A stretch of DNA of 64,000 nt from Chrysomallon squamiferum (lineage: Eukaryota; Animalia; Mollusca): positions 35,960,001-36,024,000 of the forward strand of contig CM022670.1 in the NCBI GenBank assembly GCA_012295275.1, in the 5' to 3' direction. This document shows positions 13,779 to 62,525 of the stretch, in pieces. The notes under the pieces are model-generated. The model did no database searches. It was given only the letters and a program-made list of their open reading frames with translations, and was not told the DNA's origin. Position 1 is the stretch's first letter, and each line of letters opens with the position of its first letter. A program made the translations under genes and the position numbers.

Positions 13779-13834
<56 letters not shown>

Positions 13835-13856
13835 CAATAATAATAATAATAATAAA

Positions 13857-16666: not shown

Positions 16667-16748
<82 letters not shown>

Positions 16749-17008: not shown

Positions 17009-17047
<39 letters not shown>

Positions 17048-17730: not shown

Positions 17731-17812
<82 letters not shown>

Positions 17813-21679: not shown

Positions 21680-21752
<73 letters not shown>

Positions 21753-22728
21753 AAAATTTCTTTTTAATTCTTTTTTCATGGATGGTTTAAAATAAATGTC
21801 GTTTAAGTTTGTGTTAAATATACAAATTTAATTCAGGGTTTGGAACAGGTGATAATGAATGGAATTCGAGAAACGACAAGCACCAGTCTCATATCTGACG
21901 GATCTGAATGTATTCTCCTCAACAGAAAATTCTTCAGAAAACACCTTTCAGAAGATGTTGCAAAACGAATGAGGACTGAGGTATGTTATTTCCTCTTTAT
22001 TCTCTATTATATTTATTAATTTGTGCATTTAAAACATAGAACACATTTTATATATTTTGTCTTACTTTTATCTAGTCTTTGCTAATAATAAAGTACAAAA
22101 ATAAAATAACAGACCCAACGAGAATAATATAGACAGATATTTGACGTCATTAGTGTCTATAGTCGAGATGATGATAAAGATGATATAAAAGATAGTAGTA
22201 TACGTAGTAACAGAAGTAGTAGTAGCAGCAGAGTCAATGTAGTAGTAATAACAGTGGTAGTTGTAGCAGCTATAGAAGTAGTAGTAGATGGAGTTAAAGA
22301 GGCAGTGGTGATGGTAATGGTAGTAATAGAAGTAGTAGTAGCAGTAGAAGTAGCAGAAATAGTAGTTGTAGCGGTAGTAGTAGTAGTAGTATAGTAGTAG
22401 TAGTAGTAGTAGAAGTGGCTGTTACGTTAATACAGTGGATCAGTAGTATTAATAACAGTTCGTATTAAAAAAATAAAAACAACAAAACGACAAACAAAGA
22501 AACAAAGAAAATAAATAAAACAAAACAAAACACAAAAACATAAAAATACTGATACGTAGTTGTAAATTGAACATCATAATGTCATTTCAGGTTCAGCCAC
22601 TGCCTTCTGAAGACGTGTTGCAGCGAAAGCTACAAAACCAGATAGACTGGGAAGCCTTCAGACACATGACCGTTAGCGAGCAGGTTGCGTACAAACAGCA
22701 CGTTGAAAGAACTATTCTGAAATACTGA
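13857..22728 (+). CDS. CNBD2: Cyclic nucleotide-binding domain-containing protein 2-like, paralog A (~733 aa, 13 exons)
   Basis: GT-AG exons with consistent phases: 13857-14423, 14537-14604, 14969-15107, 15356-15522, 16122-16195, 16571-16659, 17125-17354, 18180-18328, 18858-19037, 19291-19436, 21197-21307, 21837-21980, 22591-22728 (TGA); total 2202 nt. Motifs: LTFDPTEFK, RVIIRQGHIADNFYMILSG, phosphate-binding cassette FGELALMHQAKRSATV, a second degenerate CNB domain (DSDWIYFIMTGSC ... KLGPGDVYG ... SLISDGSECILL) and C-terminal LQNQIDWEAFR. The symbol denotes family likeness only; the true start may lie upstream. Confidence 0.88.
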
Positions 22729-22936
22729 AGGATTTTTCAATATGGAACAGTTACAGCGTGTGCTAAACATAAAAACCATGGATGAAGGAATATTTGCTTG
22801 GCGAACAGTGAGTCTTCTGTCACTATATGGACAAAGAAATGAAAAAGACACATACTGTCGTTTCACAAGATATGTTTCATGAGTCCTAACTTTTTTGTTG
22901 AGTATATTAATCCAGATGTCAGTTCCTGCTACTTAA

Positions 22937-27959: not shown

Positions 27960-28332
27960 CACATTAAAACAAAAACCCTTCGTCAGTGGATACATTTTAT
28001 TTCATTTTTATGATAACAAGTTCTATCAAGAAACAAAATATACAAGATCTCCTGAGTGGTGACAATGTTTTTCGACAAGTAAATAATTATAACCTGTAAG
28101 AAGTCCTATTTAAAATTGTCTTGTTCTTAGAAACTTCAGTTACAATTAGCATTAATCTGCTCGGATGTATTTAACAGCAAAATTACAAATTTTAGCTCAC
28201 CGGGATTACTGAAATTTATAACTGCGTCGATCATGCAAAGGCTGTTAACATTAATGTATTACTACTATTAATAATTGCTACGTGAAACCGGAAGTAAATA
28301 AACCATAAAAATTAGGAATGTCGCAAAGGTTT

Positions 28333-39724
<11,392 letters not shown>

Positions 39725-41125
39725 GATTATATTTCTGAAAATAACAATTTAAAAAAAAAGATAATAATTCAGTTAAAACAAACACTTTCTATAATAATAC
39801 TACTACTGTGGTTTAATTATTACTGTCTCAGTATCTGTAACATTATTATTGTTGTTTTCGTTGTTGTTGTTGTTGTTGTTTCGTCAGTGTAATTTCCAGT
39901 TCCAACCTGTGATTAACAGCGTTTATATTAAAAGCCGTGGTTTATATGTTCCAGTGTACGGTGCAGTTTGTATAAAAGAAAAATTCCTGTTGATCGGTAA
40001 AGTTTGATATGTAATGACAGTTAATAATAAAATGTCATTAGTCATGTATTTTATTTTATTTTATAATTTTATTATTACAATTATTATTATTGTTGTTGTT
40101 GTTGTTGTTGTTGTTATCGTTGTTGTTGTTGTTATTATTATTATTATTGTTGTTGTTCTTGCTGTTGTTATTGTTATTGTTGTTATCGTTGTTGTTGTTG
40201 TTGTTATCGTTATCGTTGTTGTTACACTAGTGTGCATTAGGCCTTTAAGAGTTAATTACATGAATTACCGCAATAAAGACTTTAAAATTTTATGAATAAT
40301 TTTATAAACAATTTACCCTTAAAGTCAGAAAGAAACTGCACACAATCTCACACAGCGCACATTTAAACACTGTTTTCTTTTGATAGCATTTAGGCTAATT
40401 TTCAGCAATTTATATTCCGTAGTTACGTACGATTAGTGAAAAGTCAGTAATATTTCGGTAACACTATAATCCGTTGAACTCTTGATAAGCTTACTTAGCT
40501 TCTAAATTCACGTGTAAGAATTACTTTTAACTAAACGTTAGCTGTGGTTAGAATTAATCTACACATACACGTAAATAAACAAAGAAAGAAAAGAAAAACG
40601 AACGATATTAATGTTGTATTAAAGTGAATGTTTCACCATTTTGAATTTCCTGTTTTCAGTTTAGCTAAATAAATTACCCATCTGTATTAATAACAATGTA
40701 ACGTGAAAGTGTAAAAATATTTAACATATTTATTCTACATTTTTCGAAATGGTGTTTACATTTAAAATTTTGAAATCATCTTTTGATACTGGTAGACCAC
40801 ACCAGTAAAAACATCGCAGACACAACCATACGGAAACTGAAAATTTATATTAAAATATAATTTTTACATAAAACCTGATTAACCAAACGATTCACAACTT
40901 TGCTAATTTATATATAGATGATGAATACATACTGGTAAGAATTAGTGAAGGATTGGCAAAAATGGTTGAATCATTTATCACATCTTATGTATTTTTACAT
41001 TATTATTTTGGGGTACCGTTTTCATTTTACGCTCATATTATATTTTATTATCAGCAAAGTGTTGTTTCTTAAATACAACTATCAGCTGAATGGATGTTCT
41101 AATGTATATTTTTTTAATATATATA

Positions 41126-42722: not shown

Positions 42723-45700
42723 TTAGTTAACAGCTTTAGAGTTTTGAACTATTTTTCTCGCAATTGCCATATTGACCGCAGCCTGGATTCCCATTTGAGG
42801 TTTTCTCTCTTGTCCTTCCACAAGATTTTTCACCTGAAAATAATTTTAAAATAAAATTTATTTTGGTATGCAGTTAAAGAGATATATATATTTTTTTTTC
42901 CTTCCATTTGCCATTGTTATACCTGCATTTTCAATCACCAGCTGGACTATGTGAATAATATGAATAATGTTTAATTCAATGAATAACATGAGTATTGTGT
43001 AGCTTGATAAATAGCTCTGTATAACAAGAATATTGTTTAATAAGATGAATAATATGAATATTGTTTAATAAGATGAATAATATGAATATTGTTTAACTAG
43101 ATGAATAATATGAATATTGTTTAACTAGATGAATAATATGAATAATGTTTAATTCAATGAATAATATGAATATTGTGTAGCTTGATAAATAGCATGAACT
43201 CTTCTAAGCTCTGTATAACATGAATATTGTTTAACAATATGGATATGAATATTGCTTAACTACATGAATAACATGAATATTGTTTAACTAGATGAATAAC
43301 ATGAATATTGTTTAACTAGATGAATAACATCAAAATTGTTTAACTAGATGAATAATATGAATATTGTTTAGATGAATAACAAGAATATAGTTTAACTGGA
43401 TGAATAAAAATGAATATTACTCAACTCACTGAACAACATAAATACTGATTAACTTAATAAATAACATTATCGTAAACCAGAGGAGTAAAATGAATATTGA
43501 CTAACTTAATGAATAGTATGAAAATGACTCAGTGAATAATGAATACTGTTGATCTTGATGGATAACATAAATTTTGCTCAACTCAAGGATCAAAATGAAT
43601 ATGACTCAGTGAATAACATGAATATTGTTTAACTTGATGAATAACAAATATTGCTTATGACCTCTATAAACAACATGAATTTTGCTTAACTTAATCAGTC
43701 AGATTTTTTATTACTGCTATATTCATTTTTACATCTTAACACTCATTTCTTAAACATATTTTTCTTACAGAGATTTTTTCTGGTTTATTTTATTCTTTAT
43801 TTTATCATTCATTTATTTGTCATCCTTTATTATAAGGAAAGTCTGGTCATACTGTACAATTAATTAATTTCTTATTTTAAAAATGAAATATATTTAACAA
43901 ACAAATCAAAGAAAAGTTAATTTAAAAGAAATTAATACCTTTAAATAAATTAAAATAAAATAAAATAAAATTTAAAAAAATAAAATATAAAATAAAATAA
44001 ATTAAAACTTGTTTTTTGGTTGTTGTTTTTTTAAATTGGAAAAAAATATAAAATTTAAAAAAAATAAGACCCTGACCTCATTTGACTGAGCTATGACAAT
44101 TCCATTCTTGAGAAGATTTTCTGACATTTGTTCCATCCCTTCGTGAGTGACACCACGACTAGCATCTTCAATGAAAACTGTTCGGAAACCATGCTCCACT
44201 GAATGCAGAGCAGTAAAACCTTAATAAAATAATACAAATAAAAAAGACATCATTTACAAACAATTCAGAGTACACAATGAACACTAACACAAGCAGCATC
44301 ATTATTATCTAAAATGGACTCAAAGAAGAGGGTAATTTCCAGACAGTTGTTCAGAAACCATGCTCTACTGAACACAGAGCTGCAGATATCCATATATTAT
44401 AAAAACAAACAAATCAGAACGCACAATAAACAAGATCAACAGTAACATTAATATCTAAATTTAACTTAAAGGAGGTAATTTTGAAACTGTTACAGACATT
44501 TGTAAAAAAAATACAAAAGTGACAATGTGATTTCATTGCAGTGTGATTATAGAATGCTAGGCACACTAACTCAAAATGAATAAACATTAATTTTTTAAAT
44601 AAAACGTTTACTGACTTACCAACACATACATCATAAGCCAAGCCACAAACATACACATCAGTGACATGATGCTTTGAAAGCAGTTTCACTAACTCTGTTT
44701 TTTGTAATTTGCAGTTGTCCCAGAATGCTGAGTAACTGTCAACTTCAGGGTTAGTGCCTTTATTTACTATGTGAGCTCTGTCTGTGATCTTAAAAATACA
44801 AAATAATCAGGAGAAATGTACTAACAATAATTTTAATATAAATTTCACAAACATAATTTCAGATTTCCATGTATTAAATGAAATTTATTTGAATGATTAT
44901 CATTCTTATTTATTAACTGAATTTTCTACCTGTCAGATGACATTTACAGGCATTAACTGAAATTATGCTACATCTCTAAAGATTTTTAATATAAACTTAC
45001 AACAAAGTACCAGCAACGACATTGAGTTTCGTTCTATTTGTATGACGGAATCAAGTCTGATCAAGCATTTTGTGTCCTGTGTTAAAAGAAAGGCCACTCT
45101 GATCTATTTTTAATAACCCTTTCCTTGCTATAAGCAGATATATCCACACAAAATGTTATTACTGTTGGCTATGGAAAGCAGATTTACCCAACAGCCTTAA
45201 AAAACTGTTCATTAAGCTGTAATAAATGAACACACCCACTGTCAGCTCAATATGTGCTGCCATCTGTGAGGCATTAGAGCAAATACTGGTCTTGTTGATT
45301 TTGCTGAGAGCTACTTTTAATTACTATAATCATTTTAACTTAAATCAAACATAAACCCATTAATGATGATAATAAAGAAAATAATAATAATAATAATTAT
45401 AATTATTGTTGTTGGTGTTGTTGGTGTTGTTGGTGTTGGTGTTGGTGTTGTTGTTGTTGTTGTTGTTGCTGTTGCTGTTGCTGTTGTTGTTGTTGTTGTT
45501 TGTGGTGGTGGTGGTGTTGTTGTTGTTGTTGTTGTTGTTGTTTGTTGTTGGTGGTGGTGTTATTGTTGTTGCTGTTGTTGTCACCATCATCATGATCATC
45601 ATAAAAGAATGATAGTTTTTAAGTGGTTTGCTGCTATGTAATTGTATAATCAAACATATAGCTTGAATATAAATAATGCCTAAACTGATGAAATCTGATC

Positions 45701-48700
45701 TTAATACTTTCGTTCTTAATGTGTAAGAACAGTGTGCCGAGGTACACGTATGTTTAAATTATTACTTCAAGATCAGGGTGTAGTTCTGCTCCTGCAGAAT
45801 TCTGAACACAGTGAGTTGGCCACAATCTCTGTTCGGTAAGAGGAGGTCCTTTAAACACCACAGTATCTCCAATGTTAAAACCATTACTGGATACCTGAAA
45901 AGCAAAAAAGATATATACCGTATATACTTGTGTTATTATGGTATGTTCGTGCAAGTTACAGCTCGTGCAAGTTATGTTATAGTAGGTGTATAATGTAGGC
46001 CTTCGTGGCACTGTCACACTGGTCTAAAGATAGTGACAGTGCCTGGAATCTACAGTCGACTTATACACAAGTAATACCTTAAATGACGCAATTTTTGGTC
46101 TTAAAATACACATTGACTTATACATAAGGTCGCCTTGTACACAAGTATATATGGTATATATAAAAAGAAGATAATAGAAAAAAGTTCTCTTTTTGTCAGT
46201 GAGTAAAATATATTTCTATTTAAGTATATTATGTGCATGATAAAATGCAATCAAATAATGCCATATGTGATAAATTTAAACTATCATTCGGGGTTTGTTT
46301 ACTTTCTGTTTGATTGAACAGAAGATTGTACAAAGTTGTTGAAAAGAAATCAGAGATAATATTTGATAATGCAGAAATTCATGGTTTTGAATTAAATTAA
46401 TTTTAGTATAAATAATTTAATTTTACTGGAATATACATACATGTATATTATCATCAGTATCAAAAAGTTCTTAATATTAAAATATATCTTTATGCTAGAC
46501 AATCCAGTATATATAAAAATAAAATTTGTATTTAATATTACTCACAATACAACATTAACAATCTAAAAGAGTTGTAGAGATAATTTATAATTAGTTATAT
46601 ATTAACTGCATTAATCTTAAAATTTAAATGGCTTTTTCATTTGTTCTAACTATAACAAAGTAGTTGCTTGGGTGTTCTTTTTTCAACACATGATTATTAA
46701 CAACTGACAAAAAGTAATAAATATTCAGAAATAATGTTAATCTAATTCAAGCATAACATTTAAGTAAATGTGAGGTGAAATATTTTGAGGAATTAACATA
46801 TGTAAATAATAAATCTCAAAATAGTCCATTAAATATTAATACCAAACATTAAATTTACTTTCTATTTCCAATAACTACAGATAAAATGAACGAGAAGCAT
46901 GTTGGTCTACCATGTTGCTTAATTATTAACTGAATTTTGTGCTAAGGTAAACATATAGTTTAATTTTTTTTTTTCATCAGTTTAAAATTAACTTCCACAA
47001 ACCTTTGACGTTTGGTCTAGTAGTCTTAAATTTACATTTTCTATAAATGAAATATGGTTACTTCCACAAACCTTTGACGTTTGGTCTAGTGGTCTTAAAT
47101 TTACATTTTCTATAAATGAAATATGGTTCTGAGGATGCCAGTCCTTTGAATAAACCACCACATCAAATGGAATTTCTTCCAGCATTTTGTTAATGACTGG
47201 AACCACGTCATAACCATCATGCCCTGCTGGGTAATCTTTAAGAGCAAGACTTCCACTAATGAAGTCGTTTTGAACGTCCACTATCAGCAGAGCTGTGATG
47301 GGATTCAGAACCTGAGGAACAGATAAATGTGCTCAAAACTGAAATCATAAATCAAACTAAATCTATACCAAATCAACAACAATACACAAAATACATTTCT
47401 GAATAAAAACACAAGTTAAATGTATGCATGAAAAGAGAAAGGCAGAAGAAGGAAGAATGAAAAGCAACAGTACCTGATCTACTGACATGGTTAAAAATTC
47501 TCTGGACTGAATTATGTGGAAATATAAAAATTAAATACTAATTTTGATGACAGCCAGACAATCAATAAAAAGATCAGAACAAGATATATTAAGAAAATCT
47601 ACATTAAATTTGTATTTTACTTGTAAATTTATAGACCATTTCATTACAGTCATTGTGTTATTTATTGTACAGTATCTACTACAGTTTAAAAAAAAAAATA
47701 AACATTATTCAATAACAAATGGTCTTTTTCACATGACAATCAGCTAGGACAATTATTATAAAAAAGATTATCCATAAAAAATAAAATAAATTATCACCAT
47801 ATGATCCACTACTAGGAGGCAACCATTTTACAATAGGGCCTTTTTTCCTGTTATAATACAAGTCAGTTTAAAACTAAGAATACAAAGATAAAGTAAAACC
47901 ATACATATTTCAGCCAGTACTTCCATGACTTGCTGAATTCTGAACTGCTCAGTTTGCTATCCTGAAAAAGAGTTTTAAAAAATTAATAAATAAACAATAA
48001 AAAAAAAACAATTCATATTGTACTAAAATAAAATAACTTATTATGAAAAATCAGGCTATTAATGTTTAATTTTTGATGACAAAAACTTAGAAACTTTGAC
48101 TGAGTTATGGAGGGAAAATATCTTTATTTGCTTGTATATAAAGAATCAGTTATGGAAAGTGAAAAGCAGATAACTTAGAAACAAAAGACTGGCATAAAAC
48201 GGTTATTTTTTAATTTTAACATTAATTATGTGTGGTTATGGGTGTATTTATTTATTGGTATTAATAGGTACTGAATATGGTCTGTCCTAAGAAATTATTA
48301 TTTGTCTTTCAGTATTGTTCTCAACAAGGTTAAAATTATCTGCCTGTTTACACTGGTCTAGCTTTGTAATGAGAGCAACCTTTGATAAGAAAATAAAAGG
48401 AAAAAATAATTTCAAGAGTATTTGTATGGGGCAGGCAGTTTTACAGTTAAAATGTAAATTACTAAATGAGAATGCTGTTCTTTAAAAATGTATTACAAAT
48501 TCCATGCTAGTACCATTTAATTGAGTTTCAGGTACAGAATTTGATAGAAGATACAATTCCATGTCTCTATAAGTTACAAAATATTAAACTGTGTGACAGA
48601 ATAAGTTGCTCTGACCATTCTATTAAAAGTATAATCGATAAAATATGTTTTGCCAAATAAAAAAATGTTATAAAATCAAATACTGGATAATCAGCTATTC

Positions 48701-49850
48701 AGTGTTATTTGGCGGTAAAGGCCAATTTCATTAAGTTAAAATTTAATAATAAATAATAATACATCTCTTTTAGCATCAGTTACCAAATTATATGCTTTTA
48801 AGTACAAAATGGTGTTATTTATCAAATTAATAAAATAAATAAAATTGTAACACATTTTTCTTTTTTTTAAATATTAAAAAATATAATAATAATAAAAAAA
48901 TGGTTTTAAAATGAACCTGGTCTTCATCAAGCTGTTTCAAAATAGCTTCTGTTGTTTCATAGCAAATGTTGTTTGTGTTACCAAATACATCTTGAAGGAA
49001 CACATGGAATTCTTGTATATCAAGGAAACCATCTCTAAAAGGTAAAAGAAAGACTTTTTAACAATTTTAAAGATTGAGGAATGCTACAGTTTTTATTCTT
49101 CTCCTATTTTTTTTTTTTTTTTTATAATTTATTAAAAGGTTATACAAATTTTGGCAGACATTATTGTAAATTATTCAATTTATATCAGTAAATTTACTTG
49201 TTTGTTTTGTTAGTGAAAACTTTTCAAAAATTAAAAAAAATGTATATATAGTGATAAATGCTACTTCTGGTATGTTTTGAAGGAGTTTGGAGATGTTAGG
49301 AGGGTTAAGGTTTTTTGTTGGTTTAATAAATATTACTTCATTTCAAATGATAGGAAAACATGTCTAAATAATTTCATTTTATCATCAGTATCAAATACTG
49401 TTACCTCAATACAAAGCAATAACAATAATATAGCGACTGGCAGTAATAACATAATAGTATTTTTTTTACACGTGTGTGTGTGTGTGTGTGTGTGTCCGCG
49501 GGCGCGTTAAGAAATGGAAGAATACAAGTTTCTTCATGTTTAGATTTTTAGTTACGCTTAATTTTGTACTCCAATACAGCGATTTTTTTTTTCGCTTTAT
49601 AACTTATTACGCATATTGTGGCAGTGCCTGTACATATTAAAATTATTATGTGTCTTCACTATTATGCGGTTTGTGTACTGTATTAACTATTATCTGTACA
49701 CGATAACACTATTACTTATTAGTATTATTAATACTATTAACAGTCGAATTAATTGAACCACCTGTTTTTATCGTAATGAAGAAAACAATTATCTATAACA
49801 TTTCTATCAAAACTAAACTTTCTTTTTATAAATTTATCTATATAATTCAT
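42723..49850 (-). CDS. Naam: Nicotinamidase (pyrazinamidase/nicotinamidase, isochorismatase family) with N-terminal EF-hand pair (~351 aa, 8 exons)
   Basis: Exons 49850-49762, 49034-48917, 47961-47905, 47311-47072, 45894-45766, 44788-44620, 44219-44077, 42833-42723 (TAA); total 1056 nt. Motifs ALLIVDVQNDFISGSL, DWHPQNHISF, LWPTHCVQNSAGAELHPDL, KGTNPEVDSYSAFWDN, VYVCGLAYDVCVGFTA (Asp/Lys/Cys triad and metal ligands intact). EF loops DKNRDGFLDIQE and DEDQDSKLSSSE. Confidence 0.95.
42950..43690. repeat. Minisatellite, ~28 bp unit (ATGAATAATATGAATATTGTTTAACTAG)
   Basis: About 20 or more degenerate tandem copies in the last nicotinamidase intron. Confidence 0.9.
45918..46154. mobile_element. Tc1/mariner (Tc2/pogo-like) MITE
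   Basis: TIRs CCGTATATACTTGTGT and reverse complement CCATATATACTTGTGT, TA flanks, internal GACTTATAC repeats. Sits about 24 nt from a nicotinamidase exon start. Confidence 0.7.
46991..47128. repeat. 69-bp tandem duplication across a nicotinamidase exon/intron junction
   Basis: 46991-47059 and 47060-47128 differ at one base. Confidence 0.95.
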
Positions 49851-49855
49851 AACGA

Positions 49856-50283
49856 TTATTTCTTTTTTATATTTAAATGCACTTGATTTACGATTAAAAT
49901 ATGTTAATCTTTTGTTGGCAACAAAATTATTTTCATCACGTGATCTCTGTCCCTACACAAGTCTCGATTTTCAGACCCTGCTGTTGTTTCTATTTGTATT
50001 AGAGGGTTTTGCAGTGAGAACTGCGAAGCGAAAGTAGAAATCTTTACGTTCCATTTAATTCTTCAAATTTTTACAGTAAAAATATATATATGATTATTAA
50101 TTATTATCATGTAGTACATCAACATTTTGTTTCTAGTAAGAATAAATGCATGGTGTTAAAGGAGTTATGACTGTGTGACTTTGAAAGCAGGAATTCTGAA
50201 TATTTAACTAATATATATCTTTTTCTATTTAAACCCATCTTATAAGTATACTTTTTTTGGTTGATACTTTATTATTTCCAAAA
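49856..50283. repeat. Left copy of a long direct repeat; overlaps the nicotinamidase 5' region and the shared promoter
   Basis: Colinear with 62058-62525 (e.g. TTTTCATCACGTGATCTCTGTC, GAACTGCGAAGCGAAAGTAGAAATCTTTACGTTCCATTTAATTCTTCAAAT). Contains the E-box TCACGTGA. Confidence 0.9.
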
Positions 50284-51824
50284 TTTCTTTACATATGTCT
50301 ACTTTGTAATCAGAATAAAACTACACAGGGAATCATCTCCCGGAGCCCATCACTGGCGATGTAAGAGACTGTATCCGAAACTATTTCTTAATGTGGGCAC
50401 GTACAAAGAGTTCGCATACCCATACACACAGAGAGGAAATTACAACAGAAGTTAAACATTTCTAAGAACTTTCACAATGTGAAAATAGAAAAAATTTCCT
50501 TGAAATAAAAGTAATAGTTTGAAAAATATTTTCGATTTGTATTGATATTTCCAAAAATATTTCAGACTAAGGTTTATAATATTTTAAAGATATGTTAAAC
50601 AAACATATGGTTTATTGTTGACATATGATAAATGATATTATGTTTATTATAAATTTGGTTCTTTAGTATAGTTACAAGAAGCAGTGTGCACAATAGTTTA
50701 ATTTACATATAATGTCAAGATTAAATATCTATAATTATATACATATATTATTCCTTTTAATTCTTTCGCAAAATTAAAAATATATGGCATTAATTAACAT
50801 TTCTGTTAAAAATTATATGTAGGCTGGTATGTGCACTTGTACATTGAGTAATGGCAATCTCTACACAAGAATAAATAAATAGAAGTTATCAAGAATTATA
50901 TATAAAATAATCAGTTAATAATCATAATACTAATATTGATTTGATATACGAGCAAACTGAGTTACTAGTTCGGTCACGGAAAGAATTAAACTCGTAAGTC
51001 GTCACCACTGCACACACGCACACGCACACACACACACACACACATATTAAATTTCTTTTTCTGCTAATTCAAAGAAAGTAGCTCTGTAAGTATGATGACA
51101 ACAGCTTTCTCATTTTATCCAGCCTTCTATTTTTACAGTCATTACAGACCATTACAGATTATTACTGAACATTTTTATTTTTAAATTTTTAAATTTTAGA
51201 TATTCCATGACAGATCGTAGGTTTGAATTGTTCTCTTTTGCAGGGCTGCCAAAAGTTATCTAGATAGACAGGTCTTTGTATTTCTTTACATTATTCCTTT
51301 GTTACATTCATTATTGTTTCCCACATCATTATTGCTTTTTAGTTTAATTTCATTTAAAATATATCAGCTTTACTATTGTTTGTTTTCTTTATATAAAACC
51401 ATAAGCTTCGTAGAATGTTATAGTTTTGTATCTATTATAATACAAAATAATTTTTTTGGTTTCATACTAGATTTAATAACATTCTTTTTAACTTCCACAT
51501 GTGAGTGATATCTAGACAGGGATGAAAATCACAGTTTCTCTCCATATTTAATTTATTTGTGTAATTATTTCTTTATATAATTCTGTGTATGATATGATGT
51601 CATGAACAATAATAAACTATCGGCTTGCATTTTCAAGAGCTTCTAATTTTGTTGATAAACTTTATTATGTGCAAAGATTCATCTGAGTAAAAAATTAAAA
51701 ATACAAAAAACAAAAATCAGTCATTTGGAAGAATACAAACTATATGAAGTTTATATATATATGTATATATATAATACCTCTGATTTTAAAAAATAGTTTC
51801 TTGTATTTCCATTGTAGAATTAAT

Positions 51825-52969
51825 ATGGCTGTGTCCAAACAAAGATGTGTGATTCTGAGTGAAGAGCTTGAACAGGAGCTTACTTGCACTGTGTGTTTTG
51901 AATTCTTTGAAAACCCTGTACTTCTACCTTGTAGTCACAGCTTCTGCAAAAAGTGTATTGATGTAAGATTTTAGCTTTTTTTAAGTATGTGTGTCTGTCT
52001 GTCAGTGTATGTGTATACATGTACATGGATGAAAATCACTGGGACCTCTAAAGATTCAGTGAAAAATTATTTCTTTTACTTTAATTTTATCTTTTTCATT
52101 TTGAAACCCAAACAGTCTATTAAATCTCAATGTGTCTGTGGTTGTACATGTGAGTGTAGCATCTACAACATGCACAGATACACAGCTTAGTTAACACGGC
52201 TTTTCTATGATTTATTTTTTGTATGTGAACATTAATGTATTGGTAGATAAGAGAATGAAATAAGAAAAAGAAGTTATTTAAAATGTTCAAGTTTAGTTCA
52301 AACCAAAAACAAGATGTAACTTTCAGCTGTTTATTTTATTATTCCTAGAGTGTTATAGAAAACTGTTCATCTCCTGTTCACTCATTTGACTGTCCATTGT
52401 GCAGAAAATTTATTAAAGTGAAAAGTCAGACAAAGGCTGATGACTTCCCCAAAAATCTTGCTCTGGGGAATCTTGTTAAGCTTCACACTGAAAAAGATGA
52501 CATGTTTCCAGATGAACTCTTCAAAGCTGACCTTCCGGATCTTGTTATTGACCGAAGTTGCCCAGAACATGGGAAACCCATGAGTATCTATTGCTATACA
52601 TGTGCTCATGCAGTGTGTGAAGAATGTTTGAAGGTGCAGCCTTGTTCAAAACACAAATCAAAAAAACTACAAGACTACTGCTCAATTCTGTTGGTGAGTT
52701 TTGATTAACCAGATTTAAAAAAATTAATGTATATATATAATATATATTGTTTTTGTGAGTTTATAAATAGTATTTCAGTATTTTTAGGTGTACTAGCAAC
52801 AAATGAGTTATTATATACTGAACCAGTAGTGTGATTTGTGAAACTTATTGAAGAATGTTTCAAACAGCTATTTATGTTCTTTAAGCAAACAGTACATACT
52901 ATTCCATTATTCATCAAAATAGCATTTAAAAAAAACAATAATAATAATAATAATAACAAAAAAAAAAAA

Positions 52970-53001
<32 letters not shown>

Positions 53002-53294
53002 AAAAAAGCACACACATTGCATCTGAGGAAAACATGAAAATAAATGTTAAGTCTTTACTTATAGCAGTGACAGAACCGAGTTACAACTGAATATCCAGAG
53101 TACTGTATCACATTATTATGATCTGGAGTCATATCTGCTTTAATCGAAATTCAGATTTGTACTGTTAAAATGACAATGATCACCGTGAAGATGTTAAGTG
53201 AAATTATTTATGTAATAAGGGTAATGTGTTAATGTGTTCTGAATGGGTAGGCTGGAAAAAGCATGCATCCAAACACAAATTCACACACACACAT

Positions 53295-53358
<64 letters not shown>

Positions 53359-54017
53359 TTAATATTATTATTATTATTGTTATTAATATTATTATATTAA
53401 TGATTTCAGAAACATATAATCACTGACATCCCTAAATTAAAAGATCTGTGTCATCGTCTGGAAGAAAATAATGGCATGCTGAATGTGTTTCTAAGTGATT
53501 TGGATGTAAGATGTTAATTTTTATTTTTTTTTTTTTTTACCGACTGAATAAATTGTTAATGTACAAGAGCACTGAAACAGTTATAATATTTTATTAATAG
53601 TAAAAATAGATCTCCCTCAATCACACTTTTATTTTAATACAGAGAACTAATTTCTTGTAACTTTTAACATTAAAATTATGTGTGTGTGTAAAATGGAAAT
53701 GTATAGAAAGATGGAAAGAAAGAAAAATAGATGGTAATTTTTCTTTTTCAGAAACATGAAGAACATCTGCAGGCTACTGTGAAATCTGAATTTGAAGCGC
53801 TTGTTACAGAGCTTAACAAGAAATGTGATCAAATGTCATCAGTAATCAAAATGAAATATGCAAGTCAAAGGCTTCATTGGAAAGAACAAAAAAAACGTTA
53901 CACACTCACTGTTTCAGAAATGAGAGATGTCACTGATGCTGTCAGAATGGCAATTAAAGAAGAAAAAGCAAGCTGTGTGTTAATGGTAGAAATCAATAAT
54001 ACTGCTTATGCAAGAAC

Positions 54018-54073
<56 letters not shown>

Positions 54074-54450
54074 ATGACTGCATATAATTAGTCTTAACAT
54101 AAATTAGATTGTGCTTTCTTTTTCATTGACAAATTATTTAAACTTTGTAATTTCACAATTTAAGAAAGCGCAAAAAGGTAGGAAAATGGATATTTTATAC
54201 AATAAATGTTTTAATTTTAAATGTTTTATAATTATTTTTATTATTTATTTTTTTATATTCATTGTTTTTTTTATTATTATTATCTGGGTTTTTTTGTTAA
54301 TCTTGCAGCTTCTAAAAAGTTGTCAAAAAAGAATGAAAGCCTTAAAGTCACCCCCCAAAAATAAAAATTATGAAAAAGTTCATGACATACCAAAATGGAA
54401 ATTACATCAGGAAGTCTATGCTGCTATCAAAGAAATCTCATTAAAAGAAG
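51825..54450 (+). CDS. TRIM RBCC module (C3HC4 RING, B-box2, coiled coil, COS-like linker)
   Basis: [28 protein letters not shown]...FDCPLCR; [11 protein letters not shown]; [23 protein letters not shown]...CSKH. The 96-nt and 234-nt phase-0 coiled-coil exons are the sizes typical of TRIM genes. No SPRY, NHL or FN3 domain follows. Confidence 0.93.
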
Positions 54451-57400
54451 GTCATTTTTATTATTATTTTGTTTTTTTTAGTTTTTATTTATTCTGTCTT
54501 CTCTTGAAATTTAATGCAGTTTTCAAATGCAATTTTTGAACTGTTGATGTTCTCTGATCTTATCTGAATAGTCCTTAACCAAATGCCTGCTACAGCATGG
54601 CCAGAACCTAAAATACATTCATTTCAGTTTATCATTAAATAAAGCCTTTCTTTCATTCATTCCTTTTTAAAATAATCAGCATGCATTACTTGAAAACTTC
54701 TTGTAATCTGAACTAAAGAGTGGAAGTAAAGCTGAAATAATTTTGTTGTATTTGTTCATTTTTGTTTTTGCTTGTATAATTAAAGAAAAATATTTATAAT
54801 CATAATATTATTTTTCAAACTGACTTCCTCCTCCCCGTTTCTTATTATTTAGTAAATAGTAGATTAATATATTTGAATTCCTGTGCATTCAGAAGACATG
54901 TATGATGAACCAGAGAAAAGAGCTCAGCAACTGCCAGATCTGTTTTTGGATCGAAAGCTCCTGGAGGTGGAAGTGAGTGTTTCAACACTGTATGAATACC
55001 TACTTTAGAAAAAACTTATCACAAACATTATTTATTTATTTATTTATTACATATATATTAAGTAATAATTTCTAAATCTCCTTTGTAAGATTAAAACAGT
55101 TATTAAAGTTACACGAGATGATGTTAACTAATAGTTGTATTTTTGTTTTGTTTTACAAGCAAATTTTTCTTTGTTTGTGAACATTTTAATTATTGCAATT
55201 ACTTGATGATTATTTTATGACTTTATAATCAGCTGTCCTTTCAATCTGTTTACATCAAAAACTCAGCTTATTTACATTTAATTAGGTTTTATTTAATTAT
55301 TTATTTATTTTATTTTATTGTTTATTTATTAAATCATTATTTAAACTGAAACTTTTGCACTTTTCATCAACGGGTACAGTGTACAGGTATAATTTAATTC
55401 CTTAATAAAGATAAATTTTACAGTATTCGTTATTGATGTTGTTTTAAATTAACTTCATGACTTTAATGTTTGACAGGTATCTGATTCTTTCCAGATAACC
55501 ATAATAATTTCATAAATATCATTTCTAAAACATTGTCTTTTAATTAGAGAAACATCAGACCTCTGAATCTAAATTTGGAATATTTAATGATCACACAGAA
55601 GTGATTTGCTTTTCTGATATTATTTAATGCAAGATTAAGCAAATATTTGCCAAACAGAAATATTTTTTAATTATTTCTCCTATGTACATGTGAATAAATC
55701 TGTTTTGTATAAAATGTTCTGCAATGACAAAGGTTGTTACACTTTTTCAGGTGCTTTTGGTACAAATAATATAAGTTGGTACTTATGTTAGAAGTATTTA
55801 AGTTTATTTTTCTATGTTTGCAGCAACATTTGGTTCTTCTACACCGTTTGGACAAAGTGAGTGAAACATCATAACCTCTTAATTAATGAGCTGAGGAATA
55901 CAAAATATATCAAGATGTAAAACAACTACTGCTGTCAAGTTTCTACCATCTTTCAGGACATAATGCACATAAATTGAGTACTAAAATATATATCTACATT
56001 CTTGATAATACCGAGGTCAGTTATAAACCACTAAAATAAATTGTTTTTGAGATTCACTACTGATTTACATTAAACAAAACACATTTATCTTTTTCTGTGT
56101 AAAGGCAGTAGTACATTTGGTGCAAAGCCAACTCCTGCATTTGGATCTTCGACTCCAGCCACAGGTGGATTGTTTGGCGCTTCCTCAACAGGTACAGGTG
56201 GATTGTTTGGTCAGACACAGACCACATCAACATTTGGCCAATCTTCCAACTTAAGTAAGGGAAATTGTTTATAGCGTACATTATGGATACTGATTATTAT
56301 ATGTATATGTATTATCTGCTCTTTGGTTGTTATATTTCATTACTTCATTAATCAAAAATTACATTTCTGACATTTGTCATGCATGGCTGTCTTTATAAAA
56401 AATAAAAAACAAAAAAGCCAAAAAATACTCCATAACTGGTAAGATTGGTCCAAAGAAAATATTATTTTCTTGTGGTCTGTAAATAAATGGAACTAAATTT
56501 ACTAATCCTGTTGTTTAACACTGTTTTGTTTCCAGCCCCTGTAATTTAGATGAATAAATTGTGATTATAACATGTAAATATCATTATAATGGTTTTGATT
56601 TTTGTTCTATATGGAATGAACAGTATTATTACTCACACAAATTCTTGTGAAATAAAAATTCATGGTTCAGTCAGTATTTTATTCTTATGTTTAAAGCGTT
56701 TTTGTGTTATTGTGAAAATACATATGGTTATTTTTTACATTTGCAGTATTTGAAAATAGTGTGTTAGAACTGTTGCTTTACTTTTATTGTATTTTCAGCA
56801 TTGAATTATTGTGATTGTATTGTTGATGAAATATTTCTTTATATTATCTTATTTCACTTGCAGCATTTGGAAGTACATGTAATAGAAGTATTACTTTGTT
56901 ATTTTATTAATATCATTATCAAATGGTTGTGATTATATTGCTGAGGAAGTATTTATATTATTTCACTTGTAGCATTTGGAAGTACACCAGCTAGTACTGC
57001 AGGAGGAAGTTTGTTTGGAACACAGACTCCTTCAGGAGGTTTGTTCTCAACTCCTGCCAGTTCTGCTTTTGGGTCAAAACCTGCTGGATTTGGAAGTGAG
57101 TGTTTCAACACAAAACATCTTTTTTTTTTTTTTTTTTTTTTATACAATGTGCCTACTTTTAAAAAATAACTTTACATAGATGTATTTTAAAAAAAAAAAA
57201 TTTTTTTTTTTTTTTTTTTTTTGATAAATTGTCTTGATTTATAAATATTCATAAAATATTTTTGGATACTTAACAAGTTGTTAATGCTACTCAAGAAGAA
57301 GTGAAATTTAGTATAAAATTAATAAATACATTTTATTTTTAATTCTTTTATGGTTGATATTTATTATATAAGATAAAATGTATTTTAATACAAAACTGAA

Positions 57401-60317
57401 AGTTATGATGTGTGGTTAAAAACGTAATAATTGCTTATTAACTTATTTCACCTTCATTTACTTTTTAGCAGGTTTTGGTATAGCAACATCCACAGCCTCT
57501 GGTGGACTTTTCAGTCAGACTCCAGCCCAGTCTACAGTATTTGGCCAGTCAAGACCAGGTATACCTGTAAAAAAATTCTTGTTTGTGAACATTTTAATTA
57601 TTCCAGTTACTTGATGATTATTTTAAGACATTTTAAATTAGATGTCCTTTAAATCTGTTTAGTTAAAAAACTCAGTCAGCTAGTAAGTTGTGTTCAATTT
57701 AGAATTTACTAGATTTAAATTCATAACACATAAACATGTTTCGTGTAATTTGGGTTTTATTTTTATTTTTTTATTTTTATTTATATCATTATTTTAACTG
57801 AATTTTTTGCATTGGTTCTCTGAATGACTTTTTATATATTTTGTTCCTAGTATTTGGAGCTGCTACAACACAGAATGGAACAACAGTCAAATTCAATCCC
57901 CCTCCTGGAGAAGACACAATGATGATAAATGGCAGCTCAACAAGCATACAAACAAGACATCAGTGTATTACTGCTATGAAAGAATATGAAAACAAAAGTT
58001 TAGAGGTAACTGTTTAATAGTAAATTTGTTCTTTAACCTCTTTTCAGATTTTTTACATTCTTATTTTAAGTAAATATGTAGTTACATAATGTAATTTTGT
58101 TATTAGGAACTTCGTGTGGAGGACTATTTATCCAACAGGAAAGGAAAACAAGATGGAACAGCAGGAGGTCTGTTTGGATCTACTTCAGCTTTCACTTTTG
58201 GTAGAGGTATAAAATGAATTACTTAATGAGTATTTACATGTAATTTGGGTTTTATTTATTTATTTATTTATTTTTAAAATCATTATTTAAACTGTATTTT
58301 TTGCATTGGTTCTATGGATGATTTTTTATGTATTTTGTTTCTAGTATTTGGAGATGCTACCACACAGAATATGTTAACTGTACATGTGAATAAATCTTGT
58401 TTTGTATAAAAATTTCTCAAATGATGAAGTCTGTTACACTTTTTCAGGTGCCCTTGGTACAAATACGTCTACTAGTACAGGTGGACCGTTTTGTCAGCCT
58501 GCCCAGACAGGGCAGACAGGTGGACTGTTTGGTTCAAGCAAGCCTCTGTTTGGCAACACCTCAACCAGTACAGGAACAGCCTTTGGATTTGGAGCCAGCA
58601 CAAGCCAGACAAGTTCTCTGTTTGGACAGACTCCTGCAGCAAAGGTAAAAATAACACATACTATTTATGATTTTATTTTTTTATTGAATTTTAAAATGAA
58701 GAAGCACTTCAAAGGTAAAATTAAAAGAAATTGTCATTGTTTATCATTTTAGTCTATTCACCTATATTGTTTTGTTGGTTGAAGTGTCATGCAGAATTTT
58801 AAACTTCTTTAATTACTTATTTTATTTTTTTCAATACTGTTTTTTTTTTTTTTGACAGTCTTTAATCAAACCCCATTGATAGATTAAAATAAATGTACAT
58901 ATTTACTAATGATATAATAAAATAAATTTACCTTTGTTCTTAGTAATTATTTTTTGATACAAAGTTGTTCAGTTGCCTTTAACCCAGGTAAATATTCATC
59001 TGTTTTCTGTTAAAGCCCTCACTGTTCGGTACCACACCAGCTGCTTCAACACAACCTTCTTTGTTTGGTACCAACACATCAACATTTGGCCAGTCAGGAG
59101 GATTTGGAACCACTGGGTTTGAAACCCAAAAAACTGTAAGTACACCTTTTAGCTAAATCAAATACTGTTTTGATATGATTTTTTTTTTACACTTAATGAT
59201 CACACAGAGATGAAAAAGATTTTCTGATATTATTATCATAAAGAAATTAAAGAAGAAGAAAAAATGTTCCAGTCTTTTCAGATGATTTTCTTATACTTTT
59301 ATTTAATTGTTTTTTCTTTTTCAGTCTGGTGATCTTTATGGAAGTAAACCTACTGGTTTTGACAAAGCCACGACAACAGCATCTACTGGATTTGGTTTTG
59401 GTACAGGCAGTAATTTGTTAGCTAAACTAGTGTCATCTACATCAACCTTAGGAATTGCAACTACTACTCCATCCTTTGGAGGTTAGTTAAAATAATTATT
59501 GTGATATCTTAGTGATGTAATAATCAAGATTATTAAATTATTAGAAATACCATAATCCAGACGTAATTGTCAAAAAATGTAATGCTGTTGCAGCTATGAG
59601 AAATAAATGATAATCATCTAACAAATAAATTTAAATAAAAAAAAGAATTAAGCAACTATTTGCCAAACAGAAATATTTGTACATGTGAATAAATCTGTTT
59701 TGTATGAATTTTTCTGCAGTGACATAAGTTGCTACACGTTTACAGGTGCTTTTGGTACAAATACTTCTACTAGTACAGGTGGACTGTTTGGTCAGCCTGC
59801 CCAGTCTGGGCAGACAGGTGGACTGTTTGGTTCAAGCAAGCCTCTGTTTGGCAACACCTCAACCAGTACAGGAACAGCCTTTGGATTTGGAGCCAGCACA
59901 AACCAGACAAGTTCTCTGTTTGGACAGACTCCTGCAGCAAAGGTAAAAATAACAAACTATATTACTGTTTCACATTTTATTTTTTTATTGAATTGTAAAA
60001 TGTAATATTTTTCTTAGTAATTATTTTTTTAATACACAATTGTGCAGTCGCCTTTAGCCGTGGTAAATATTCATCTGTTTTCTATTAAAGCCCTAACTGT
60101 TCAGTGCTATACCAGCTTCTTCAACACAACCTTCTAAATTAAATACTGTTTTGATATGACTTTTTTCGCATTTAATGATGCCACAGAAATGAAACAGCTT
60201 TTCTGATATTATTTAATGCAATATTAAGCGAATATGTTGTTAATAATTAAGAAATTAGAGAAGAAATAATAATAAAAATATCTGTATATTCTTCATCTTT
60301 TCAGATGATTTTCTTAT

Positions 60318-60362
<45 letters not shown>

Positions 60363-61690
60363 GTATTTGTTTATCCAAAATAGGTAGGTTTTTGCATGCT
60401 TGATATCTTGTGAATGAATCTTAAACTTTACTTGCACACACAGAAAAATGACAAAATCTAAATACATATTTCTCAAAATTTATATCAGAATTTAAGATTT
60501 AAACTAAATTAAAAACTTTTTATATTATGTATCAAACAGAGTTGTATATTAATTTCAATTCTATAATTCATTGATTTAAAATGATGTTGACCCCTTTTTG
60601 TATATAACATTTAAACAATACTGTTGATGTTTTCAAAAAATATTTACAAAATATCAATAATTTAATCATCTTTCAGGTTGTTTTCTTAAGAATATTCAAC
60701 TCGGTTGAAAGGCCTGAGAATAGAAACTGTAGTAGTTAACCTGACAATACTCTAATGCATTTAACCTTATCATAGGACATGTTATATTTCTTCTAATTTT
60801 TCAGAAAGTGCATATTAAAGTTTTATCATCCGTTTGGCCTTCAACCATATAAAGTAGATATGACACCATTTAACTAGCTTAAAGATGTGTTTTTACTAAG
60901 GAAAATGTTTTTTTATTTTTTTAACTACATTTTTAGTTTTGATAAAACTGTTACTTTGTCTCCTATCTTTATCAGCAAGACCTCAAATCCAAGACTGGAA
61001 TTAGAACTACTTCATCAACAAGTAAGGTATGTGATGAATGGTATTTTGTGTATGTAGAAATATTTTCAAAGGACTGAAACATCAGTACAAAATACACATT
61101 GACCCTTAATGTATGTATGAGCGATTTTTTCTGTGTGATATATATATATGGAAACTGACTGTTAGAGGGATCATCAGAAAATAAAATTATTTAAAGTAGA
61201 AAATAAAATGAATTAAAGCTGAAAATATTTGATCAGTTGCAAAATATCTGAGTTAATCCAGAATTGTTGTTTATTGAACTTATGATATAGTAATGGTGGA
61301 TGCTGTTTTAAATTGTAGGAAATATTTACATTTATTTTAATTTGCAATACAACTAAAAAAACCATTTTTATTAGATTCAAAGTTCAGTCTTAATATAAAT
61401 AACAAATAATTATACATTTTAATCAAATCTTGTTTTAGGTATGTCCAACCAGTATGTTACCATTTGCTTCAGCAGTGACTGCTACTACTACTACTACTAC
61501 TACTCCTGCTACTACTATTACTACTACTACTACTACTACTACTACAAACTTTGTAAAAATAGATCCGTTTGATTCCTCATCAGACACTTCAGTAAGTTCA
61601 GAGGAGAATGGTCAATCAGCAAACCCAGAAATATGTCCTACTTCAAACAGATCGAAATCAAATTCAGATACTGATGATGAAGAATGGTAG
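51825..61690 (+). CDS. Chimeric TRIM (RING-Bbox2-coiled coil) / Nup98-derived FG-GLEBS protein (~859 aa in the model that skips exon 54893-54972)
   Basis: Exons 51825-51962, 52349-52693, 53410-53505, 53752-53985, 54309-54450 (phase 1), then 55824-55856, 56105-56254, 56973-57095, 57469-57558, 57851-58005, 58107-58206, 58448-58644, 59016-59135, 59325-59481, 59746-59942, 60976-61026, 61439-61690 (TAG). Total 2580 nt, all GT-AG, no internal stops. Probable non-coding 5' exons end at about 50993 (C|gtaagt) and span about 51244-51271. Joining the two halves in one mRNA is inferred. Confidence 0.72.
55824..59942 (+). CDS. NUP98: Nup98-derived FG/GLFG repeat exons with GLEBS motif (partial Nup98 copy)
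   Basis: About 35 FG dipeptides (6 GLFG) in S/T/G/A/Q spacers. GLEBS at 57851-58005 plus 58107-58206: [55 protein letters not shown], closely matching the Nup98 GLEBS consensus. No native Nup98 start exon, autoproteolytic domain or Nup96 seen. Confidence 0.92.
60091..60140 (+). pseudogene. Decayed duplicate of FG exon 59016-59135
   Basis: Same acceptor context (taaag|CCC), but TCA>TAA at codon 2 and the 3' half including the donor is deleted. Confidence 0.8.
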
Positions 61691-62057: not shown

Positions 62058-62525
62058 GTTATTTCTTTTTTATATTTAAATGTACTTGATTTTACGACGA
62101 AAGCTATCTTAATCTTTTGTTGACAAAAATTATTTTCATCACGTGATCTCTGTCTCTACACAAGTCTTGATTTTCAGACCCTGCTGTTGTTTCTATTTGT
62201 GTTAGAGGATATTGTAGTTTGAACTGCGAAGCGAAAGTAGAAATCTTTACGTTCCATTTAATTCTTCAAATGTTTTACAGTACAAGTATATATATATATA
62301 TATATATATATATGTGATTATTAATTATTATCATGTAGTACATCAACATTTTGTTTCTACTAAGAATAAATGCATGGTATTAAAGGAGTTATGACTGAGT
62401 GACTTTGAAAGCAGAAATTTTGAAGTAAATTTAACTAATATTTATCTTTTTCTATTTAAACCGTCTTATAAATATACTTTTTTTTTTTTTTTTTTTTTGT
62501 GTTGTTGAAACTTTGTTATTTCCAA
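62058..62525. repeat. Right copy of the long direct repeat of 49856-50283
   Basis: Colinear alignment by eye with scattered substitutions and expanded (TA)n and T tracts. Confidence 0.9.

What the first reader, a model, noticed from the sequence alone, without database searches (positions are those of the whole stretch)
57851..58206. Intact GLEBS could tether Rae1, a hub hijacked by viruses, to a RING E3
Seen: [23 protein letters not shown] with the EE pair preserved across a phase-0 intron. Established: GLEBS binds Rae1/Gle2, and the Rae1-Nup98 complex is targeted by VSV M, SARS-CoV ORF6 and gammaherpesvirus ORF10 to block mRNA export. Inference: an integrated-decoy or guard design in which viral export inhibitors binding TRIM-held Rae1 are ubiquitinated or trigger signalling. 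Alternatively it regulates Rae1 levels.
Basis: partly seen in the sequence, partly recalled or inferred. Interest (0 to 1): 0.7.

Follow-up and report, generated by a model that had tools for sequence, protein, structure and literature searches.

The report
Snail TRIM ligase with Rae1-docking motif
A snail ubiquitin-ligase gene carries a genuine copy of the nuclear-pore motif that holds the mRNA-export factor Rae1, and the same gene in a related snail has kept just the core of that motif, so the ligase likely docks on Rae1; binding is untested, an antiviral role is only a guess, and in this genome's own sequence the motif lies out of frame with the ligase.

Summary
The GLEBS is real: two exons joined at a phase-0 intron inside the EE pair, Pfam 64.8 bits, 34 of 35 highly conserved positions kept. 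It lies in a partial copy of the Nup98 5' exons, downstream of a spliced RING-B-box-coiled-coil gene of a gastropod related to Gigantopelta aegis. As written, the window's 80-nt linker exon puts the GLEBS out of frame. Contig arithmetic in four runs hints that other individuals have a 78-nt, in-frame exon, but that joint was not seen directly. Intactness here is weak evidence of selection, because the copy is nearly identical to parent-type transcripts. The stronger evidence is the G. aegis ortholog (42% identical TRIM part): it keeps a 16-residue GLEBS core, 14/16 identical to Nup98, in otherwise unrecognisable flanks. Bivalve relatives lack it. Best reading: a TRIM with a likely selected Rae1-docking tail (0.5). 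Rivals: young, decaying copy (0.25); antiviral decoy (0.15). Ten paper searches found no such fusion. This scan noted GLEBS grafts before on other DNA (a shark TRIM, a HECT ligase, fungal Mx-like GTPases).

The parts
51825..51962 (+). TRIM exon 1: start codon and first six RING zinc ligands (C21, C24, C36, H38, C41, C44)
   Evidence: Pfam RING E 1.2e-9; spliced to exon 2 in 3 of 3 RNA runs
52349..52693 (+). TRIM exon 2: end of RING (C61, C64), linker, B-box 2
   Evidence: Pfam zf-B_box E 4.9e-7; 54% identical to G. aegis P0122
53410..53505 (+). TRIM exon 3, coiled coil
   Evidence: GT-AG ends, phase 0-0; 97 letters lie between exons 2 and 4 in X3 record 15
53752..53985 (+). TRIM exon 4, coiled coil
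   Evidence: heptad pattern; joint to exon 5 in 3 of 3 RNA runs
54309..54450 (+). TRIM exon 5, end of RBCC, ends in phase 1
   Evidence: joint 54450>54893 in 3 of 3 RNA runs
54893..54972 (+). Chimeric linker exon 6; its 3' part is a copy of the end of FG exon 56973-57095. It is 80 nt here (out of frame) and probably 78 nt (in frame) in other individuals
   Evidence: 83% over 66 nt to 57046-57111; frame test; length arithmetic
55824..55856 (+). Nup98-derived FG exon F1
   Evidence: 9/10 identical to G. aegis Nup98; spliced to F2 in 3 of 3 RNA runs
56105..56254 (+). FG exon F2
   Evidence: 43/48 identical; RNA pieces with 0 differing letters
56973..57095 (+). FG exon F3
   Evidence: 36/41 identical; F2>F3 joint in 2 of 3 RNA runs
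57472..57558 (+). FG exon F4 (the acceptor at 57469 is also in frame)
   Evidence: 25/29 identical; joint in 2 of 3 RNA runs
57851..58005 (+). GLEBS exon 1, ends on the first Glu of the EE pair
   Evidence: Pfam PF21240 64.8 bits; 45/52 identical to G. aegis Nup98
58107..58206 (+). GLEBS exon 2, starts on the second Glu
58345..58370 (+). Truncated second copy of the start of GLEBS exon 1, with its upstream intron
   Evidence: 92% over 26 nt; flank 88% over 135 nt
58448..59481 (+). Decaying FG exons F5 (58448-58644), F6 (59016-59135) and F7 (59325-59481)
   Evidence: 12 of 19 aligned FG motifs kept, against 16 of 16 in F1 to GLEBS exon 2; Fisher p 0.009
59746..59942 (+). F8, tandem duplicate of F5 that keeps more FG motifs
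   Evidence: 96% identical to F5; 5 nonsynonymous and 2 synonymous codon differences
60976..61690 (+). Predicted terminal exons 60976-61026 and 61439-61690 (Thr/Ser-rich, acidic end, stop codon)
   Evidence: phase-compatible in the gene model; not covered by the RNA lay

Best explanation
This is a spliced gastropod TRIM gene (RING, B-box, coiled coil) followed by a Nup98-derived GLEBS that likely serves as a selected docking tail for Rae1, so the ligase would be recruited to Rae1 and would ubiquitinate Rae1 or Rae1-bound clients. Shown: the domains, the motif, splicing of the TRIM, linker and 5' FG exons, and a GLEBS core in the G. aegis ortholog. Inferred: (1) the exon 6 to F1 joint is in frame in most individuals; (2) the TRIM-GLEBS link predates the split from G. 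aegis, or arose twice at the same gene; (3) this lineage overwrote or topped up its tail more than once from the Nup98 gene, leaving pieces 12-17% diverged beside a nearly unchanged FG-GLEBS cassette; (4) the coiled-coil dimer shows two GLEBS peptides and competes with Nup98 for Rae1.
For: The only strong TRIM homolog among 1.84 billion representatives is G. aegis XP_041359532.1 (E 1.3e-31; next best 6.7e-7). It carries Pfam GLEBS above cut-off at residues 404-422. Its 16-residue core is 14/16 identical to G. aegis Nup98, and shuffles reach at most 7/16. The flanks score no better than shuffled downstream (119 and 253 of 500 shuffles reach the score) and only marginally better upstream (25 of 500). 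This core maps to human 193-208, inside the 192-221 stretch needed for Rae1 binding, and includes the E201/E202 salt-bridge pair (PMC2133102, PMC3783196 passages). 0 of the other 19 TRIM hits has a GLEBS; 9 of them are 380 aa or longer. Window and ortholog are sisters at 92/84 support. The FG frame of exon 6 aligns weakly to the ortholog's linker (64 of 2000 shuffles), while the window's own frame does not (1916 of 2000). Precedent: PHR RING ligases bind Rae1 (PMC4806438).
Against: The window's own exon 6 is out of frame. The exon 6>F1 joint is not among the 15 joint rows shown (9 hidden), and the 78-nt form is inferred from lengths, not read. One RNA contig (X3, depth 13.7) changes the first RING cysteine to leucine. 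The 3' FG exons are decaying. The ortholog is a predicted RefSeq model, lacks the N-terminal half of the GLEBS and may not bind. The sister-pair support is below the tool's starred level. All RNA runs are contigs from one study.
Confidence: 0.5

Rival explanations
1. Young, unselected cassette on a gene that is drifting or dying in this species: the GLEBS is intact only because it was copied recently from Nup98.
For: F2 and F3 RNA pieces differ from the window at 0-1 letters, although an X3 contig shows a parent-type Nup98 first exon joined to F1. Other signs are the frameshift in the window, a RING Cys-to-Leu version in X3, 9 nonsynonymous against 6 synonymous codon differences in the TRIM rows shown, FG loss in F5-F7, truncated exon remnants, and Lys to Ile at a 94%-conserved GLEBS position.
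Against: It does not explain the selectively kept core in the G. aegis ortholog. The gene is spliced in 3 of 3 RNA runs. The three FG-exon differences shown are all synonymous. The Lys-to-Ile site maps outside the 181-224 fragment that is sufficient for binding (PMC2133102).
Confidence: 0.25
2. Integrated decoy or guard: the TRIM holds Rae1 as bait, and a viral export inhibitor that binds Rae1 is ubiquitinated or triggers signalling.
For: Viral M, ORF6 and ORF10 bind a groove of the Rae1-Nup98 complex; ORF6's tail made no contact with the GLEBS, so GLEBS-held Rae1 could still be bait (PMC8790125, PMC7604486 passages). The TRIM part evolves fast (42% against 86-90% for the F1 to GLEBS exon 1 stretch of Nup98). 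TRIMs are listed among expanded immune families in G. aegis (PMC7895826 section 8). GLEBS is also grafted onto a RING (P0106), a kinase (P0009), a C1q protein (P0003) and a B-box-like/coiled-coil tail (P0007). Unchecked scan notes add fungal Mx-like GTPases.
Against: No mollusc virus targeting Rae1 appeared in the listing (15 of 916 papers listed; titles and abstract starts only). There are no induction or positive-selection data. Fast change fits relaxed selection equally well. The other grafts are single predicted records.
Confidence: 0.15
3. The motif docks the Rae1 paralog Bub3 (or both) and ties the ligase to the spindle checkpoint rather than to mRNA export.
For: The Bub1 GLEBS binds both Rae1 and Bub3 (PMC2172680 passage). 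The G. aegis ortholog keeps only the helix half and has Phe for Leu before the EE pair, as checkpoint-type motifs do (recalled, not tested).
Against: The same paper says Bub3 binds only checkpoint-protein GLEBS motifs. The window's copy is fully Nup98-type.
Confidence: 0.06
4. Assembly or gene-model artefact: Nup98 exons wrongly placed behind an unrelated TRIM, or two separate transcription units.
For: The region is repeat-rich, the window frame is broken, and the decisive joint was not displayed.
Against: The chimeric exon 6 is spliced to the TRIM in RNA and lies in one continuous piece (54774-55018) in the DNA-like run X5 of another study. The FG block lacks a start exon and everything after Nup98 residue 402. 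A second species has the same RBCC-GLEBS order.
Confidence: 0.04

Closest known systems
Nup98/Nup116 GLEBS-Rae1/Gle2 complex (Pfam PF21240; PDB 3MMY, 4OWR, 7VPG, 7BYF)
   Same: Same motif, EE pair and flanking FG exons, colinear with G. aegis Nup98 residues 17-402.
   Different: No start exon, autoprotease domain or Nup96 part. The motif sits behind an RBCC instead of in a pore-anchored nucleoporin.
TRIM/RBCC E3 ligases (TRIM2, TRIM21, TRIM28 as nearest solved structures)
   Same: C3HC4 RING, B-box 2 and a long coiled coil.
   Different: The C-terminal module is a GLEBS in a disordered tail, not SPRY, NHL, FN3 or PHD-bromo. The nearest bivalve relatives have a plain Ser/Thr tail without GLEBS.
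PHR ligases (MYCBP2/Highwire/RPM-1)
   Same: RING E3 that binds Rae1 through a small motif (PMC4806438 passages).
   Different: A giant RING-H2 protein with its own RAE-1 binding domain; not a TRIM and not described there as Nup98-derived.
TRIMCyp and plant NLR integrated decoys (recalled, no call)
   Same: A host protein piece is grafted onto an immune scaffold.
   Different: There the grafted piece binds the pathogen protein and function is proven. Here the graft would only hold the bait, and no pathogen is known.
NUP98 leukaemia fusions (search listing only, e.g. PMC11423334)
   Same: The Nup98 FG and GLEBS region is fused to a foreign domain.
   Different: Those are somatic, with Nup98 at the N-terminus and chromatin partners. 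This one is germline, with Nup98 pieces C-terminal to a ligase.

Membership tests
TRIM/RBCC ligase | N-terminal C3HC4 RING | tested here: met
   Pfam RING hits; eight ligands present; one RNA version loses C21
TRIM/RBCC ligase | B-box after the RING | tested here: met
   zf-B_box 30.2 bits, cut-off 24.1
TRIM/RBCC ligase | Long coiled coil after the B-box | tested here: met
   a/d hydrophobic fraction 0.62-0.75 over residues 151-290 (best register); the ortholog model has a continuous helix 154-273
TRIM/RBCC ligase | Ubiquitin ligase activity | not testable with these tools
   needs an in vitro assay
Nup98-type GLEBS | Sequence profile above the curated cut-off | tested here: met
   64.8 bits against 27; 124.6 bits on own profile
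Nup98-type GLEBS | EE pair that salt-bridges Rae1 arginines | tested here: met
   role from PMC3783196 passage
Nup98-type GLEBS | Binds Rae1 | not testable with these tools
TRIM-GLEBS fusion protein | GLEBS translated in one frame with the RING | tested here: inconclusive
   out of frame in the window; in frame if exon 6 is 78 nt or skipped; indirect length hints in four runs; in frame in the ortholog's RefSeq model
Nup98-Nup96 nucleoporin gene | Own start exon, autoprotease domain and Nup96 | tested here: not met
   tblastn of P0001 matches only residues 26-402 in the window
Integrated decoy | Grafted piece or its partner is the target of a pathogen of this host | not testable with these tools
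   no such mollusc virus in the listing
Integrated decoy | Adaptive evolution or induction on infection | tested here: inconclusive
   9 nonsynonymous against 6 synonymous codon differences in the TRIM rows shown, 40 of 160 rows visible; no induction data

The most novel reading that the evidence does not exclude
Animals have repeatedly bolted the Nup98 GLEBS onto ubiquitin ligases and other effectors to guard Rae1. In these snails a fast-evolving TRIM has kept, and in one lineage re-copied, that bait from the Nup98 gene, making it an animal integrated-decoy sensor for pathogen blockers of mRNA export.
Probability: 0.15. Interest if true: 0.85.

Novelty: new variant of a known kind. Interest (0 to 1): 0.58.

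Why it matters
A TRIM whose C-terminal module is a Nup98 GLEBS was not found in ten full-text searches (titles and abstract starts read). The two snails form a natural dissection: one keeps a 16-residue core, the other a fresh full copy. That predicts a minimal Rae1-binding peptide and a ligase that controls or exploits Rae1 away from the pore. Free GLEBS is known to pull Rae1 off the nuclear envelope and block mRNA export when overexpressed (PMC2133102), so keeping one on a dimeric ligase is unlikely to be harmless. If the decoy reading held, it would be an animal counterpart of plant integrated decoys, aimed at a hub attacked by three unrelated virus families.

Tried and rejected
No genome is held for this window, so the parent Nup98 gene, copy number and a true dN/dS could not be obtained. 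A word-index search with exon 2 found nothing at E 1e-5 among 34 candidates; the full HMMER search then found the ortholog. Atlas searches gave only generic RING/B-box clusters under 0.9 and no usable hit for the ortholog's GLEBS region. I first read the ortholog's Ser/Thr tail as decayed Nup98 FG repeats, but shuffles do not support that, and bivalve relatives have such tails without GLEBS. Contig depths fit one fusion transcript plus one parent transcript (X2: TRIM 10-12, F1-F3 25.7, F4 split into 10.8 and 14.1; X3: TRIM 13.7, F2-F4 35.1), but contig depth cannot rank transcripts, so this is not counted. Lack of cover in X1 over F3 to GLEBS exon 1 is no evidence. An exon 5>F1 skip would be in frame but is not among the joint rows shown. 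A 445-aa form skipping all FG exons is possible on paper and was not tested. The original Rae1-Nup98 structure paper could not be fetched. No supplements were read; those of PMC7895826 may list this TRIM. No look-alike notes by place or sequence.

Full report
Observation. The window is AT-rich, intron-containing animal DNA. Exons 57851-58005 and 58107-58206 have canonical ends and join in phase 0 between the two glutamates of the GLEBS. Pfam scores the first exon at 64.8 bits against a cut-off of 27. I built a 110-row GLEBS alignment from G. aegis Nup98 and the 109 of 120 listed hits that had one full-length motif; the window keeps 34 of the 35 columns that are at least 90% conserved. The one loss is Lys to Ile at G. 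aegis K171. By the +4 offset between that protein and the human chain (with the 157-213 construct named in PMC8790125) this is human K175, outside the 181-224 fragment that is sufficient for Rae1 binding (PMC2133102, passages). The motif is real and probably able to bind.

Anatomy. Upstream lie five exons of a TRIM gene: RING, B-box 2 and coiled coil. Then comes an 80-nt linker exon (54893-54972) whose 3' part is a copy of the end of a Nup98 FG exon (83% over 66 nt). Nine exons colinear with residues 17-402 of G. aegis Nup98-Nup96 follow (P0001, the single hit among 3297 candidates), then a duplicate FG exon and two predicted terminal exons. Nothing else of Nup98 is in the window, so this is a partial copy. 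It is a mosaic. Internal repeats are 79-88% identical and there are truncated exon remnants. FG motifs are kept 16 of 16 from F1 through the GLEBS but only 12 of 19 in F5-F7 (p 0.009). The organism is a gastropod related to G. aegis, judged from these homologs.

The frame problem. All FG exons before the GLEBS are phase 1-1. Exon 5 ends in phase 1, so exon 6 must be a multiple of three. In the window it is 80 nt, giving a stop at residue 405 in F2; two bases fewer give an open frame of 884 residues. I laid three RNA runs (one study) and one run of unrecorded kind that behaves like DNA (another study) on 50500-57950 (4 of the 5 runs listed). GT-AG joints exon 1>2, 4>5, 5>6 and F1>F2 appear in 3 of 3 RNA runs; F2>F3 and F3>F4 appear in 2 of 3. 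The exon 6>F1 joint is not among the 15 rows shown (9 hidden). Three indirect signs point to a 2-base shorter exon 6 in those individuals. X1 and X3 contigs stop fitting at 54914 with six letters left over, inside a short AG-rich run. An X5 piece spans 245 window bases with 243 letters. An X2 contig of 229 letters divides as 119 + 80 + 30, the last 30 being the usual contig overlap, while another X2 contig starts exactly at the first base of F1. The FG frame of exon 6 also aligns weakly to the ortholog's linker (64 of 2000 shuffles reach it) and the window's frame does not (1916 of 2000). I therefore infer an assembly slip or a minor allele in the window, but this was not read directly. RNA over the GLEBS core and the 3' exons was not examined.

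Is intactness selection? In this genome, not demonstrably. An X3 contig joins F1 to 204 foreign letters that read like the Nup98 first exon, so parent-type transcripts are in the pool, yet F2 and F3 pieces differ from the window at 0-1 letters. The 5' cassette is therefore very young or homogenised, and an intact GLEBS is expected either way. Among the 40 of 160 difference rows shown, TRIM exons differ at 9 nonsynonymous and 6 synonymous codons, including loss of the first RING cysteine in one X3 contig; the three FG-exon differences are synonymous.

The ortholog changes the picture. HMMER over 1.84 billion proteins gave 20 hits for exon 2, one of them strong: P0122, G. aegis XP_041359532.1, 1030 aa, E 1.3e-31. 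Its RBCC is 42% identical to the window's and groups with it at 92/84. AlphaFold2 gives RING, B-box and a helix at 154-273 with a disordered tail, and the nearest folds are TRIM21, TRIM28 and TRIM2. At 404-422 it has a GLEBS above the Pfam cut-off. The 16-residue core is 14/16 identical to its own Nup98 (shuffles at most 7/16), whereas the flanks are at chance level downstream and marginal upstream. The core corresponds to human 193-208, within the 192-221 stretch whose deletion abolishes Rae1 binding (PMC2133102), and holds the E201/E202 pair (PMC3783196). Keeping just that piece is what selection for binding would leave. The two G. aegis genes have the same longest-contig length, which suggests one chromosome. 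None of the other 19 TRIM hits, including the nearest bivalve group, has a GLEBS. Limits: P0122 is a predicted model, I could not see its introns, and a single versus double capture is open.

Recurrence. Among the best 120 of 229 GLEBS hits under 1000 aa, most are Nup98 or fragments. A few are grafts: two GLEBS plus a C-terminal RING (P0106, unnamed), two GLEBS plus a kinase (Dreissena P0009), two GLEBS plus C1q (Bradybaena P0003), and a Nup98 N-terminus on a weak B-box/coiled-coil tail (P0007). These are single predicted records. Earlier AI notes of this scan describe a shark TRIM, a HECT ligase, fungal Mx-like GTPases, a BTB protein and a giant-virus protein with GLEBS. They are unchecked leads; I could not test orthology with the shark family.

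Mechanism. Most likely the coiled coil dimerises the protein (established for TRIMs, recalled), each tail docks Rae1 through the GLEBS, and the RING ubiquitinates Rae1 or what Rae1 carries; the fresh FG repeats might add pore or condensate affinity in this species. PHR RING ligases already show that Rae1 partners with a ligase, acting downstream of it or stabilising it (PMC4806438, passages). The decoy version is structurally possible, because the viral proteins fill an RNA groove and ORF6's tail did not touch the GLEBS (PMC8790125, PMC7604486, passages), and TRIMs are listed as expanded immune families in G. aegis (PMC7895826, section 8). But the review section on viral factors (PMC12666860, passages; also PMC12458179, abstract) names VSV, sarbecovirus and gammaherpesvirus proteins, and the listing showed no mollusc example.

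What I saw of the papers: passages of PMC3783196, PMC4806438, PMC8790125, PMC7604486, PMC2133102, PMC2172680, PMC6761389 and PMC12666860; passages and section 8 of PMC7895826; abstract and outline of PMC12458179; search listings only for the rest. TRIMCyp, plant integrated decoys and the checkpoint-type Phe are recalled.

Verdict. Observation confirmed. A new domain variant of TRIM ligases with comparative evidence for a selected Rae1-docking core (0.5). A young decaying copy (0.25) and an antiviral decoy (0.15) remain open. Interest 0.58.

Noticed in passing
window 49856-50258 and 62059-62484: An 88%-identical direct repeat of about 400 bp flanks the whole TRIM gene on both sides, 12.2 kb apart; a mobile-element piece or the edge of a segmental duplication.
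   Followed up: no
window about 44000-49050, minus strand: Isochorismatase-family gene, probably nicotinamidase (Pfam; name inferred). An 82-bp tandem duplication at about 46990-47130 repeats the end of one exon.
   Followed up: partly
window 13700-22730 (+) and about 28300-39750 (-): Exons of a cyclic-nucleotide-binding-domain gene on the plus strand (weak Pfam hit at 17050-17355) and what looks like a converging paralog on the minus strand (similar exon peptides; no Pfam hit).
   Followed up: partly
window 51885-51886, run X3: An expressed version of the TRIM lacks the first RING cysteine; a second haplotype in X1, X2 and X5 has a cluster of amino-acid changes in the B-box (residues 141-147).
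   Followed up: partly
P0106 (Logan, 495 aa): Two GLEBS motifs, FG repeats and a C-terminal RING whose best solved match is the equine herpesvirus-1 RING: an independent GLEBS-RING arrangement in the reverse order.
   Followed up: partly
P0002, P0004, P0005, P0006, P0011, P0015, P0026: Multi-GLEBS proteins without the Nup98 autoprotease domain in catfish, acorn worm, ticks, lungfish and unnamed records.
   Followed up: no
window 61439-61690: The predicted last exon ends in a short acidic stretch with a terminal tryptophan, reminiscent of Arp2/3-binding acidic tails (recalled; not tested, not seen in the ortholog).
   Followed up: no
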